From contig NW_026782721.1 in assembly GCF_031769215.1 (NCBI RefSeq), forward strand, positions 434,001 to 498,000: DNA of 64,000 nucleotides. Direction: 5' to 3'. Numbering within the stretch: the first letter of the stretch is position 1; the number at the start of each line of letters is the position of its first letter. The position numbers were made by a program. Positions 54,501 through 57,500 of this stretch are shown piece by piece. This stretch comes from Ylistrum balloti (Eukaryota).

Positions 54501-57500
54501 AACTTTATTCATGTGACAAAGTCAAACAAAATGGCTTCCTATTACGAAGGACGACACAATACGAACTTGTAACGAGAAATTGGAAGGAATTAGCCATGGA
54601 AACTATAATAAATAATCATAAATAATCATGTTTGGTTGAGGAAACATCATAGGAAAAACCATAGAACGATAATATCAGGTATGCTTGGCTTTTAAGAACA
54701 CAATTCAAGGAGATATGATATGAATTGTCGGAAGGAAAAAAGTGTCATTTCCTCTATATCTCTGTAATGTCCGCACCCCCTTTTTTGGATTGATTTTCGG
54801 TGAAAAAAAGTGTGGACATTACATGGGTTTTTACGGTAAATAAAACTTATGCCACCTCCTCCTATACACATATAAATAAATTAACCAAAGTAACAAATTT
54901 TACCTGCTAAATCTGTAACGCATTTTCACATTTGTTGCATAAAACTTTTCTCCAATGTTGTCATGGTAACTGATAGATAAATGAAGAGTACTTCCAACTG
55001 GAATCTTTTTCAGCAACCCTCCAGAAGTCCTCAGTTTAGTGTCAGAATTGATCATCATGTAGGAAACAGGTTTTACCTAAAGGACAAACAGATATATAGG
55101 TTTTACCAAAAAGGTCACTGAAAATATACAGGATTTACCTAGAGGTCACAGAAATATACAGGATTTACCTACAGGTCACAGAAATATACAGGATTTACCT
55201 AGAGGTCACAGAAATATACAGGATTTACCTACAGGTCACAGAAATACACAGGATTTACCTAGAGGTCACAGAACTATAAAATAATTAACTAGAGGTCACA
55301 GAAATATACAGGATTTACCTAGAGGTCACAGAAATATACAGGATTTACCTAGAGGTCACAGAAATACACAGGATTTACCTAGAGGTCACAGAAATATACA
55401 GGATTTACCTACAGGTCACAGAAATACACAGGATTTACCTAGAGGTCACAGAACTATAAAGAATTAACTAGAGGTCACAGAAATATACAGGATTTACCTA
55501 GAGGTCACAGAAATATACAGGATTTACCTAGAGGTCACAGAAATATACAGGATTTACCTAGAGGTCACAGAAATATACAGGATTTACCTAGAGGTTACAG
55601 AAATATACAGGATTTACCTAGAGTTCACAGAAATATACAGGATTTACCTAGAGTTCACAGAAATATACAGAATTTACCTAGAGGTCACAGAAATATACAG
55701 GATTTACCTAGAGTTCACAGAAATATACAGGATTTACCTAGAGGTCACAGAAATATACAGGATTTACCTAGAGGTCACAGAAATATACAGGAATTACATT
55801 GAAGTCACAGAATTATACAGGTTTACCTAGAGGTCACAGAAATATACAGGATTTACCTAGAGGTCACAGAAATATACAGGAATTACATTGAAGTCACAGA
55901 ATTATACAGGTTTACCTAGAGGTCACAGAAATATACAGGATTTACCTAGAGGTCACAGAGATGACCTTGATGAGAAGGATGAATGTATGAGACAATAACC
56001 TTGATGAGAAGGATGAGGGTAAGAGACAATAACCTTGATCAGAAGGATGAGTGAGAGAGATAATGACCTTTATTAGAAGTACTAATGTCTGGTTAGTACC
56101 AAACTCCTCCTGAGATGTGATGTGGAGGGCAGCCTCTCCAGCCTTTGGTCCAGAAATCAATAAGCCTCCATCTCCCACGGCAACGACCCTCTGGTCACCA
56201 CTAGATGGCAGTACTGTGTAGCTCACTTTGGCTGCCCCATCTCTATTGAATTATAGAAGATTTCTGAGTGTTAGTACTGTGTTAACATCGACCTGTACAA
56301 GTCTTGTAGTACATTGGTGACTTATTGCCACCACAGTTTACTGTCTTCATTTACACCCAAAAAACAAATCAATAAATATCTGTTGATATTGCAATCAAGA
56401 ACTTCATATAACTTTAATATAAAAAGCGAACAATTTATGATTGCTTGAAGTGTTTGAATGTGGAGATTTGTAATACCTGTTTGTTTTGATGACTGCCTCG
56501 GTGTTAGGAGTCATCAGAAGTTTGCCATCACACACAGACGGACTGATCACAGCAAGCTTCTGGAACACCTGAAAATCAACACCAATAATCACAATGAAAT
56601 GTAACATGACTAAATATCATTTCATTACGAGACTATGACAGAAATAATAAACGTAAGTTATAGTACTGTGACAGTGTTAGTGTCTGTTTGCTGCTCCTCC
56701 AATTGATTACTGTTGTACTAATTTGTACTCTTTGCAGCAAAATAAGAGATCATGTGATAAAATTTCATTGCACTAAATCAAGGATGTTAACAGTATTTTT
56801 TAGATTCATGTATCATGATCTCACAAATTTTTTTTTTAAAAAGTTACCAAGTCAAAACTGTAGGTCACTATTTCTCCCTTCACTTAACAGACCCTTCCTC
56901 AATCTGTAGCTCACCACTACTTCATTCTCTTTACTGACCCCACTTTTATCTGTAACACATCAGTCCTGTGTACCCCTAACTAACCCTACCTCAATCTGTA
57001 ACACATCAGTCTCTGTACCCCTAACTGACCCTACCTCAATCTGTAACACATCAGTCCTCTGTACCCCTAACTGACCCTCCCTCAATCTGTAACACATCAG
57101 TCTCTGTACCCCTAACTGACCCTCCCTCAATCTGTAACACATCAGTCCTGTGTACCCCTAACTGACCCTACCTCAATCTCTAACACAATAGTCCTGTGTA
57201 CCCCTAACTGACCCTACCTCAATCTGTAACACATCAGTCCTCTGTACCCCAAACTGACCCTACGTCAATCTGTAACACATCAGTCTCTGTACCCCTAACT
57301 GACCCTACCTCAATCTGTAACACAATAGTCCTCTGTACCCCTAACTGACCCTACCTCAATCTGTAACACATCAGTCCTGTGTACCCCTAACTGACCCTAC
57401 CTCAATCTGTAACGCATCAGTCCTGTGTACCCCTAACTGACCCTACCTCAATCTGTAACACATCAGTCCTCTGTACCCCTAACTGACCCTACCTCAATCT

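What the first reader, a model, noticed from the sequence alone, without database searches (positions are those of the whole stretch)
55077..56067. A NUP210 intron made almost entirely of copies of its own two splice sites
Seen: the 5' end is three ~35-bp copies of the donor and the remainder is about 29 30-bp copies of the acceptor; the two arrays meet directly at about 55958. Any upstream decoy AG gives VNPVYFCDL followed by TAG, where the stop is the next acceptor itself. The decoy nearest the true site has AG changed to TG (55108-55107). Inference: the ancestral intron was short and grew from both ends, with selection against the proximal decoy.
Basis: partly seen in the sequence, partly recalled or inferred. 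Interest (0 to 1): 0.65.

Follow-up and report, generated by a model that had tools for sequence, protein, structure and literature searches.

The report
Scallop intron built from splice-junction repeats
A 991-base intron of a scallop nuclear-pore gene consists almost entirely of tandem copies of its own two exon-intron junctions, a rare kind of repeat ("mirage" minisatellite) so far described in amphioxus and in one human gene.

Summary
The window is from the scallop Ylistrum balloti, not human. The gene is its NUP210-like gene on the minus strand.

Intron 56067..55077 (991 nt, phase 0) parses into:
- three 34-nt copies of the donor junction;
- a 20-nt hybrid piece;
- 29 units of about 30 nt that copy the acceptor junction.

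The copies include 21 nt and 11 nt of flanking exon, far beyond chance. The annotated protein uses the two outermost sites. It is collinear with the Mizuhopecten and human proteins.

This intron is not unique. Six of 34 mapped NUP210 junctions, and one junction in the neighbouring PTGR3-like gene, carry junction-copy arrays.

The class is known: amphioxus "mirages" and the human F7 IVS7 VNTR. I call it a new member of a known kind, in a new phylum and in an extreme form.

- A short ancestral intron is not supported.
- Growth was by internal block duplication, not at the ends.
- Selection against the proximal decoy acceptor is suggestive, not shown.

No orthologous intron or RNA data could be reached.

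The parts
56068..56242 (-). Exon A of the NUP210-like gene. It ends with the codons for ...VLLIK. Its last 21 nt (56088-56068) are the exon part copied into the 34-nt units.
   Evidence: Exon mapping against P0001. It aligns to human NUP210 residues 1313-1370.
55966..56067 (-). True donor (GT at 56067-56066) followed by three 34-nt donor-junction units. Decoy donors lie at +34, +68 and +102 and all keep GT.
   Evidence: The true donor is the weakest of the 17 donors by U1 duplex energy, -4.1 against a median of -9.1.
55946..55965 (-). 20-nt hybrid piece where the two arrays meet. It starts like the donor's intron part and ends like the 30-nt unit's acceptor part.
   Evidence: parse and sequence.
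55139..55945 (-). Units 1-27 of the 30-nt acceptor-junction array. Each unit is about 11 nt of exon-B-like start plus about 19 nt of intron end. Most junctions read AG|GT.
   Evidence: There are 27 internal AG|GT junctions in the whole intron. Block duplications are shown.
55107..55138 (-). Unit 28, the proximal decoy. AG has changed to TG at 55108-55107. A new CAG lies at 55120-55118. The TGAC at 55117-55114 is the only branch-point-like TNAY motif in the last 60 nt, with its A at -39.
55077..55106 (-). Unit 29, the true acceptor unit, with AG at 55078-55077. It matches the unit consensus at 23 of 30 bases.
54904..55076 (-). Exon B. It starts with the codons for VKPVSY and matches Pfam Ig_NUP210_15th from profile position 1. 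Its first 11 nt are the exon part copied into the 30-nt units; TRF extends the array to 55066.
56933..61252 (-). Same kind of array in intron 6. A 46-nt array of about 93 copies reproduces the donor junction at 61231, with about 21 nt of exon and 25 nt of intron per unit. GT is kept in 88 of 93 decoys, and 84 have the same 9-mer as the true site.
63452..63881 (-). Same kind of array in intron 0. A 112-nt unit at 3.4 copies reproduces the donor junction at 63811, with about 70 nt of exon per unit.
62405..62621 (-). Same kind of array in intron 2. A 66-nt unit at 3.3 copies reproduces the acceptor junction at 62439, with 32 nt of intron and 34 nt of exon per unit. Both decoys are identical to the true site over 23 nt.
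48392..49215 (-). Same kind of array in intron 15. A 76-nt unit at about 10.6 copies reproduces the acceptor junction at 48430, with about 38 nt of exon per unit. All 10 decoys read AT instead of AG.
30314..31130 (-). Same kind of array in the neighbouring PTGR3-like gene. A 51-nt unit at 16 copies reproduces the acceptor junction at 30331. AG is kept in 14 of 15 decoys and lost only in the proximal one.

Best explanation
The intron carries two 'mirage'-type minisatellites, which are tandem arrays whose unit spans an exon-intron boundary. One was seeded by a tandem duplication across the donor junction, with 21 nt of exon and 13 nt of intron per unit. The other was seeded across the acceptor junction, with about 19 nt of intron and 11 nt of exon per unit.

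Shown:
- The arrays grew by slippage or unequal exchange of blocks of units.
- Units at the array edges are the most diverged.
- The two arrays now abut, and no unique intron sequence remains between them.

Inferred:
- The original unique interior of the intron was lost.
- The gene still works because the spliceosome joins the two outermost sites, which are the only pair that keeps the reading frame.
- The first donor transcribed, which is also nearest to exon A, wins. This matches the 5'-to-3' oriented scanning shown experimentally for the human F7 IVS7 repeat.
- The acceptor nearest to exon B wins through exon definition, a slightly better pyrimidine tract, and a branch-point-like site at -39 with no AG between it and the true AG.
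- Use of a decoy acceptor gives a stop codon within 0-26 codons, so such transcripts would go to nonsense-mediated decay.

The arrays are most likely neutral or slightly harmful by-products of a minisatellite-prone genome, not a device.
For: - Anatomy.
- Junction homology beyond chance: one search gives 16 of 21 and 10 of 11, each unique among about 2000 exon k-mers. Searches find the units only inside this intron, with 0 matches in shuffles.
- Outermost sites used: P0001 reads ...VLLIK followed by VKPVSY.... P0001 and the Mizuhopecten protein align at 1724 of 1908 identical residues with no gap. Human NUP210 residues 1313-1370 and 1371 onward are contiguous across the junction. Pfam domain 15 starts at the first residue of exon B.
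- Block growth and edge divergence.
- Recurrence: copies of the junction lie in the junction's own intron at 6 of 34 NUP210 junctions, and never in another intron. There is one more case in the PTGR3-like gene. In all, 7 of the 10 intronic arrays I tallied for the two genes (from the TRF list) span a junction.
- Stops after every internal AG.
- Site strengths and branch-point-like motif.
- Known class. For amphioxus 'mirages' I read PMC3087553 section 16 in full and one passage of PMC3902484. They report that both boundary types can be duplicated, that normal splicing is kept, and that cluster edges escape homogenisation. For the F7 IVS7 VNTR I read the abstract and discussion of PMC1557585.
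Against: - No RNA data were available. Use of the outermost sites rests on an automated protein model plus conservation.
- The true donor is the weakest of the 17 donors. It is weaker than the 24 AG|GTAAAT junctions in the acceptor array that score -6.7 against its -4.1. Simple site strength therefore does not explain the choice of site.
- The true acceptor is only marginally more pyrimidine-rich than the decoys, 13 against 11-12 of 17.
- Whether arrays at junctions are more frequent than random seeding predicts depends on an assumption. With collapsed intron lengths taken as they stand, 5.4 of 10 are expected and P(>=7)=0.17. With lengths floored at 182 nt, 3.35 are expected and P=0.014. A boundary-targeted process is neither needed nor excluded.
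- The copy numbers depend on the assembly.
Confidence: 0.8

Rival explanations
1. A very short ancestral intron expanded outward from both ends, and natural selection specifically disabled the decoy acceptor nearest the true site.
For: - Both arrays do derive from the two junctions.
- Nothing unique remains between them.
- Unit 28 has 5 changes against its block-duplicate, while the other five pairs have 4 changes in 150 nt. That gives Poisson P=0.0014. All 5 lie in the last 14 positions, P=0.022.
- The PTGR3-like array also lost AG only in its proximal decoy, 1 of 15. The naive joint P is 0.007.
Against: - The collapsed remainder of 20-32 nt is far below the shortest of the 17 mapped introns, 182 nt.
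- The visible growth steps are internal block duplications.
- Edge units of arrays diverge anyway. Corrected for that, the joint P is about 0.12.
- Unit 28 gained a new CAG 11 nt upstream.
- The proximal decoy in intron 2 is identical to the true acceptor.
- The five changes could be a single complex mutation.
Confidence: 0.25
2. The arrays are functional, or at least 'splice-transparent'. Nearly every unit starts with GT and ends with AG, so each junction looks like a recursive splice site. Splicing to a decoy acceptor would then regenerate a usable donor (AAG|GTAAAT), and the intron could be removed stepwise. Alternatively, the many U1-binding sites could help define the weak true donor or regulate output.
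For: - There are 27 internal AG|GT junctions in the intron.
- A donor regenerated at 24 of them is predicted to bind U1 better than the true donor, -6.8 against -4.1.
- The true donor is the weakest of the 17.
- Exon B itself starts with GTAAAA, so the founding junction already had this two-sided character.
Against: - This is sequence resemblance only; there are no RNA intermediates.
- The AG|GT form follows automatically from duplicating any junction whose exon starts with GT.
- Other arrays in the window lack it. All 10 decoys in intron 15 read AT.
- In amphioxus such arrays are reported simply not to disturb splicing.
Confidence: 0.12
3. The intron was newly created by tandem duplication of an exonic AGGT-containing segment (the Rogers model, or the 'mirage' model of intron gain). 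On this view it is not an old intron that acquired repeats.
For: - The exon-exon junction reads AAG|GTA, a proto-splice-site-like motif.
- The neighbouring PTGR3-like intron does show such a signature. Its last 11 nt match the last 11 nt of the upstream exon at 10 of 11, above all 306 cross pairs, whose maximum is 8.
Against: - For intron 8 the signature is absent. The exon end matches the intron end at 6 of 11, and the intron start matches the downstream exon start at 3 of 11. Both values lie inside the cross-pair distributions.
- The intron sits in phase 0 exactly at the start of Ig-like domain 15, which is typical of an old domain-boundary intron.
- The units contain non-exonic parts.
Confidence: 0.05
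4. The arrays are an assembly artefact, or a dispersed satellite or transposon array that merely happens to lie in the intron.
For: - The window is very rich in tandem arrays: TRF returns 52 rows at score >= 80.
- Long arrays are hard to assemble.
Against: - The units occur only in this intron within the window.
- They carry this junction's own exon sequence.
- Variant units form ordered higher-order blocks, which a collapse artefact would not give.
- Rfam finds nothing in the region.
Confidence: 0.03

Closest known systems
'Mirage' minisatellites of amphioxus. Reported in Adh3, globins BflGb6 and BflGb9, PGBD5, troponin C and others. I read PMC3087553 section 16 in full and one passage of PMC3902484. 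The founding paper, Canestro et al. 2002 (PMC117041), is not held.
   Same: - Tandem repeats whose unit spans an exon-intron boundary.
- Both 5' and 3' boundaries can be copied.
- Many copies keep AG/GT.
- The authentic boundary is the outermost unit.
- Normal mRNA is still made.
- Edge units escape homogenisation.
- Several genes are affected in the same genome.
   Different: - The phylum is Mollusca, not Cephalochordata.
- Both boundaries of one intron are affected, and the two arrays fill the whole intron.
- Copy numbers are higher, 29 here and about 93 in intron 6.
- Length polymorphism and somatic instability, reported for amphioxus, could not be tested here.
The 37-bp VNTR of intron 7 of the human F7 gene. 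I read the abstract and discussion of PMC1557585.
   Same: - The first repeat element spans the exon-intron boundary.
- The true donor is followed by pseudo-donors of the same sequence.
- Only the most upstream one is used, which gives a tested mechanism (5'-to-3' oriented scanning) for the donor side.
   Different: - F7 has 5-9 copies on the donor side only.
- Nothing in it addresses arrays of acceptors.
- The experiments were done in mammalian cells, not molluscs.
Intron gain by tandem duplication of AGGT-bearing exon segments, or from tandem arrays. Sources are Rogers 1989 and Zhuo et al. 2007. I saw both only as citations, in the text of PMC3087553 and the reference list of PMC3488318.
   Same: Tandem units bounded by GT and AG lie inside a gene.
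   Different: Here an existing intron's junctions were copied. The diagnostic similarity of intron ends to the opposite exon ends is absent for this intron.
Recursive splice sites, which are juxtaposed 3' and 5' splice-site motifs.
   Same: Most unit junctions read pyrimidine-rich...AG|GTAAAT.
   Different: Known recursive sites are single conserved sites in very long introns. Here they are a by-product of repeat structure, and their use is untested.

Membership tests
Mirage minisatellite (tandem duplication of an exon-intron boundary) | Head-to-tail repeat of minisatellite unit size inside a gene | tested here: met
   TRF finds a 34-nt array at 3.4 copies and a 30-nt array at 29.8 copies. Parse.
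Mirage minisatellite (tandem duplication of an exon-intron boundary) | The unit contains both an exonic and an intronic part of the adjacent authentic boundary | tested here: met
   The exon parts match at 16 of 21 (donor) and 10 of 11 (acceptor). Each is unique among 1968 and 2128 control exon k-mers. The intron parts match at up to 10 of 13 and at 14 of 19.
Mirage minisatellite (tandem duplication of an exon-intron boundary) | The authentic boundary is the outermost unit and normal mRNA is made | tested here: inconclusive
   The annotated protein P0001 uses the outermost sites. It is gap-free against the Mizuhopecten protein and collinear with the human protein. No transcript data could be examined.
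Mirage minisatellite (tandem duplication of an exon-intron boundary) | Concerted evolution inside the array, with the edge units left out | tested here: met
   13 of the 29 parsed units are identical to the consensus. Edge units 28 and 29 score 20 and 16 against 30 for a perfect unit. Block duplicates are shown.
Mirage minisatellite (tandem duplication of an exon-intron boundary) | Length polymorphism or instability between haplotypes | not testable with these tools
   Only one assembled copy is in hand.
F7 IVS7-type donor VNTR | The first element spans the exon-intron boundary and is followed by pseudo-donors | tested here: met
   Three decoy donors follow at 34-nt steps. All keep GT and have the same U1 duplex energy as the true site, -4.1.
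F7 IVS7-type donor VNTR | Only the most upstream donor is used (oriented scanning) | not testable with these tools
   This needs RNA or minigene data. It is inferred only from the reading frame and the annotation.
Intron created by tandem duplication of an exon segment | The intron's 3' end resembles the upstream exon's end, and its 5' end resembles the downstream exon's start | tested here: not met
   The values are 6 of 11 and 3 of 11 for intron 8, within the cross-pair distributions.
Recursive splice site | Juxtaposed 3' splice-site and 5' splice-site motif | tested here: met
   There are 27 internal AG|GT junctions in the intron; 24 in the acceptor array score -6.7 for U1 pairing. This is a match at the motif level only.
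Recursive splice site | Stepwise removal of the intron through that site | not testable with these tools
   No RNA data.
NUP210 / gp210 nuclear pore membrane glycoprotein | Chain of NUP210-type Ig-like domains, with exons collinear with known NUP210 | tested here: met
   Exon B hits Pfam Ig_NUP210_15th at E=1.6e-15. P0001 hits 10 NUP210 Ig families. Exons A and B align to human NUP210 residues 1313-1370 and 1371-1424. P0001 is 100% identical to exon A.

The most novel reading that the evidence does not exclude
Boundary-copy ('mirage') minisatellites are not an amphioxus oddity. They may be a general, frequent process in some marine invertebrate genomes. In this scallop at least 7 splice junctions in two neighbouring genes carry them, and one intron has been wholly replaced by copies of its own two splice junctions.

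If seeding at junctions really exceeds random placement, as it does when ancestral introns are taken to be of normal length (P=0.014), then some step linked to transcription or splicing targets duplications to exon-intron boundaries. The resulting AG|GT-periodic arrays would be tolerated because any mis-splice regenerates a usable site. Decoy acceptors close to the true site would be selectively disabled.

Such arrays would then be a standing source of new exons and introns. The PTGR3-like intron in this window may be an example.
Probability: 0.15. Interest if true: 0.7.

Novelty: new member of a known kind. Interest (0 to 1): 0.45.

Why it matters
An intron with about 29 look-alike acceptors and 3 look-alike donors is a natural experiment in how the spliceosome picks one site among near-identical ones. 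The neighbouring intron 6, with about 93 look-alike donors, is another. Repeated acceptors in particular have no tested model comparable to the F7 donor study.

Finding seven boundary-copy arrays in 64 kb of a mollusc genome widens a phenomenon reported from amphioxus. None of my four literature searches turned up a mollusc case. The generating mechanism is called 'unclear' in the paper I read.

The arrays also matter for gene annotation. Gene predictors can pick wrong copies. Some units here are complete pseudo-exons that would act as poison exons if included.

If the arrays prove neutral, the locus is a tidy curiosity rather than a new mechanism.

Tried and rejected
- **Structured RNA in the region.** An Rfam scan of 54000-57500 at gathering thresholds gave 0 matches.
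- **Antisense coding.** The array gives 118-119-aa repeat ORFs on the plus strand. Pfam gives nothing for one of them. For the other it gives only a sub-threshold Tup_N match, 19.2 bits against a cut-off of 28.7. I treat them as by-products of a repeat that lacks stops in those frames. All three sense frames are closed in every unit.
- **Dispersed repeat or transposon origin.** The units are absent from the rest of the window.
- **Intron-gain signature for intron 8.** Negative.
- **Exon A against Pfam.** No family matched this exon alone. Its identity rests on the match to human NUP210 in the solved-structure search and on P0001.
- **Solved-structure search.** Only human NUP210 was hit, and this carries no exon information.
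- **The founding 'mirage' paper.** PMC117041 is not held.
- **Literature on molluscs.** Searches for such arrays in molluscs, or for arrays of duplicated acceptors, found nothing relevant. A search on 'mirages' found only the two amphioxus papers.
- **Supplementary files.** Additional files 4-7 of PMC3087553, which hold the mirage alignments and trees, were not seen.
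Full report
**What the window is**

The window is scallop DNA, not human, and contains no N. I searched one exon at a time.
- The exon upstream of the finding is 100% identical to a 1908-aa NCBI protein of Ylistrum balloti, 'nuclear pore membrane glycoprotein 210-like' (P0001). It is 91% identical to the Mizuhopecten yessoensis protein (P0002).
- The same exon aligns to human NUP210 residues 1313-1370, and the exon downstream to residues 1371-1424.
- The downstream exon matches Pfam Ig_NUP210_15th from profile position 1 at E=1.6e-15. 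P0001 carries ten NUP210 Ig-like families.

P0001 residues 988-1908 map to the minus strand between 63939 and 46740. I fixed 17 introns by requiring GT/AG and agreement with P0001.

**The observation**

The intron of the finding runs from GT at 56067-56066 to AG at 55078-55077. It is 991 nt and phase 0. TRF finds a 34-nt array (55964-56079, 3.4 copies) and a 30-nt array (55066-55959, 29.8 copies).

My parse:
- three 34-nt units at 56067-55966;
- a 20-nt hybrid piece at 55965-55946;
- 29 units of 29-32 nt at 55945-55077, the last being the true acceptor unit.

Nothing else is left in the intron. P0001 reads ...VLLIK followed directly by VKPVSY..., which means the outermost donor and outermost acceptor are used.

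**More than chance**

All comparisons are in fixed register.
- The 21 exon bases before the true donor match the decoys at 14, 14 and 16 of 21. Among 1968 exon 21-mers of this gene only the true one reaches 16; the next best is 13.
- The first 11 bases of the downstream exon match the unit at 10 of 11. Among 2128 exon 11-mers only the true one reaches 10; the next best is 8.
- The other 16 donors and 16 acceptors score much lower.

The unit sequences occur only inside this intron, with 23 and 2 matches at up to 3 mismatches and none in 100 shuffles.

The copied exon parts encode residues that are conserved in the Mizuhopecten protein. The two proteins share 1724 of 1908 residues with no gap. 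The same parts are collinear with human NUP210. The arrays therefore copied the junctions, not the reverse.

**The stop-codon claim**

The intron has 33 AG dinucleotides.
- Used as acceptors in phase 0, all 32 internal ones give a stop within 0-26 codons. Seventeen give exactly VNPVYFCDL and then the stop.
- All three sense frames of the unit are closed.
- On the donor side the third decoy (+102 nt) would instead add 34 residues in frame, because read-through from exon A is open for 41 codons.

**It is not alone**

The window is full of tandem arrays; TRF returns 52 rows at score >= 80. I searched 24-mers spanning each of the 34 mapped NUP210 junctions, allowing up to 5 mismatches. Copies lie in the junction's own intron at six junctions and never in another intron:
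- intron 0 donor;
- intron 2 acceptor;
- intron 6 donor;
- intron 8 donor;
- intron 8 acceptor;
- intron 15 acceptor.

Local alignments show exon parts of about 70, 34, 21 and 38 nt for introns 0, 2, 6 and 15.

Decoy status varies between arrays:

| Array | Decoys | Status |
|---|---|---|
| Intron 0 donor | 3 | all keep GT; as strong as the true site |
| Intron 6 donor | 93 | 88 keep GT; 84 have the true site's 9-mer |
| Intron 8 donor | 3 | all keep GT |
| Intron 2 acceptor | 2 | identical to the true site |
| Intron 15 acceptor | 10 | all read AT instead of AG |

The neighbouring gene is PTGR3-like. I mapped it with the Mizuhopecten protein P0003. It has a 51-nt x16 array copying the acceptor junction at 30331, and 14 of its 15 decoys keep AG. 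In all, 7 of the 10 intronic arrays I tallied for the two genes (from the TRF list) span a junction.

**What is known**

The class already has a name.
- Ebner et al. [quoted passage not shown] They cite earlier cases in Adh3 and other amphioxus genes. They report that both boundary types can be duplicated, that units range from 10 to about 160 bp, and that many repeats keep AG/GT. They also report that regular splicing is not disturbed, that clusters vary in length, and that cluster edges escape homogenisation. They call the generating mechanism unclear and suggest the phenomenon may be general in cephalochordates.
- A passage of PMC3902484 adds PGBD5 and troponin C.
- The founding paper (PMC117041) is not held.
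- For the donor side there is an experimental model. The human F7 intron 7 has a 37-bp VNTR whose first element spans the exon-intron boundary. The pseudo-donors are functional, but only the most upstream one is used. This is attributed to 5'-to-3' oriented scanning, with a contribution from exon definition (PMC1557585; abstract and discussion read).
- My searches found no report in molluscs and no study of arrays of duplicated acceptors.

**How it most likely arose and works**

*Shown.* Two arrays were seeded across the two junctions. Growth was by block duplication: units 1-3 equal units 4-6 at 89 of 89 bases, and units 17-22 match units 23-28 at 173 of 180. The edge units are the most diverged.

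*Inferred.*
- Unique intron interior was lost. Collapsing the arrays leaves only 20-32 nt, whereas the shortest mapped intron is 182 nt.
- The outermost sites are chosen because the first donor is met first and lies next to its exon, as in F7.
- The last acceptor lies next to exon B (exon definition).

Site strength alone does not explain the choice.
- The true donor is the weakest of the 17 by U1 duplex energy, -4.1 against a median of -9.1. It equals its decoys and is weaker than the 24 AG|GTAAAT junctions in the acceptor array that score -6.7.
- The true acceptor has 13 of 17 pyrimidines, against 11-12 in the decoys.
- The only TNAY motif in the last 60 nt has its A at -39. No AG lies between it and the true AG.

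*'Short ancestral intron.'* Not supported, for the reason just given. The ancestral length cannot be settled here.

*'Grew from both ends.'* The two arrays do come from the two ends, but the visible growth steps are internal.

*'Selection against the proximal decoy.'* Three of 29 decoy positions lack AG. They are units 2 and 5, which are copies of one event, and unit 28.
- For selection:
  - Unit 28 carries 5 changes against its block-duplicate, while the other five pairs carry 4 changes in total (Poisson P=0.0014).
  - All 5 changes lie in the 3' splice-site half (P=0.022).
  - The PTGR3-like array lost AG only in its proximal decoy.
  - The naive joint P is 0.007.
- Against selection:
  - Allowing edge units their observed divergence, the joint P is about 0.12.
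  - Unit 28 gained a new CAG at 55120-55118.
  - The proximal decoy of intron 2 is intact.

I rate this inference as suggestive.

**Are junctions targeted?**

I used a simple geometric null. Duplications of the observed unit length are seeded uniformly, and those confined to exons are removed.
- With collapsed intron lengths as they stand, 5.4 of 10 arrays are expected to span a junction, and P(>=7)=0.17.
- With lengths floored at 182 nt, 3.35 are expected, and P=0.014.

The excess therefore depends on the unknown ancestral lengths.

**Rival readings**

- *Splice-transparent or recursive array.* This rests on motif resemblance only.
- *Intron gain by exon duplication.* The signature is absent for this intron (6 of 11 and 3 of 11). 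The PTGR3-like intron does show it (10 of 11, against a cross-pair maximum of 8).
- *Artefact or dispersed satellite.* This is contradicted.

**Not done**

- No orthologous scallop intron could be fetched.
- No transcript data were available.
- No haplotype comparison was possible.
- Supplementary files of the papers were not seen.

**Verdict**

It is an extreme double case of a known but obscure class, now seen in a mollusc and recurring in the same locus. The claim about ancestral length and the claim about selection remain open.

Noticed in passing
window 30331-31210 (minus strand), PTGR3-like gene: The last 11 nt of this 880-nt intron match the last 11 nt of the upstream exon at 10 of 11, above all 306 cross pairs (maximum 8). 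The 51-nt array units therefore carry sequence resembling both exon ends, as if copied from uninterrupted coding sequence. This may mark an intron born from an exon duplication. The rest of the unit resembles downstream exon sequence only weakly (156 of 2000 shuffles score as high)..
   Followed up: partly
window 63459-63752 (minus strand), NUP210-like intron 0: The 112-nt donor-junction units are complete pseudo-exons. Each has a 3' splice-site-like tail, then 53, 61 or 62 nt, then a strong GTAAGT donor. None has a length that is a multiple of 3, and all give stops, so they would act as poison exons if included.
   Followed up: partly
window 48430-49215 (minus strand), NUP210-like intron 15: All 10 decoy acceptors of the 76-nt array read AT where the true site reads AG. 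This array either expanded from an already disabled copy or was purged of AG.
   Followed up: partly
window 56933-61231 (minus strand), NUP210-like intron 6: About 93 copies of the donor junction sit in a 4.3-kb array. GT is kept in 88 of them, and 84 have exactly the 9-mer of the true 5' splice site. Read-through from the exon hits a stop after 6 codons, judged by eye.
   Followed up: partly
window 1199-25000: A macro tandem repeat of about 5.1 kb is present in at least four copies at about 94% identity. Each copy contains a 49-nt array and a 17-nt array. I did not look for genes in it.
   Followed up: no
window 36942-37730 (plus strand): A 262-aa open frame inside the first intron of the PTGR3-like gene looks by eye like a retroelement reverse-transcriptase fragment. 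I did not search it.
   Followed up: no
window 55076 (minus strand): Exon B begins exactly at profile position 1 of Pfam Ig_NUP210_15th. The array-filled intron therefore sits in phase 0 at an Ig-domain boundary.
   Followed up: yes
window 25933-26759 and 40258-40751: Two further arrays, 25-nt x34 and 62-nt x8, lie outside mapped coding exons. The first is downstream of the last PTGR3-like coding exon and the second is between the two genes. They were not counted among the intronic arrays.
   Followed up: no
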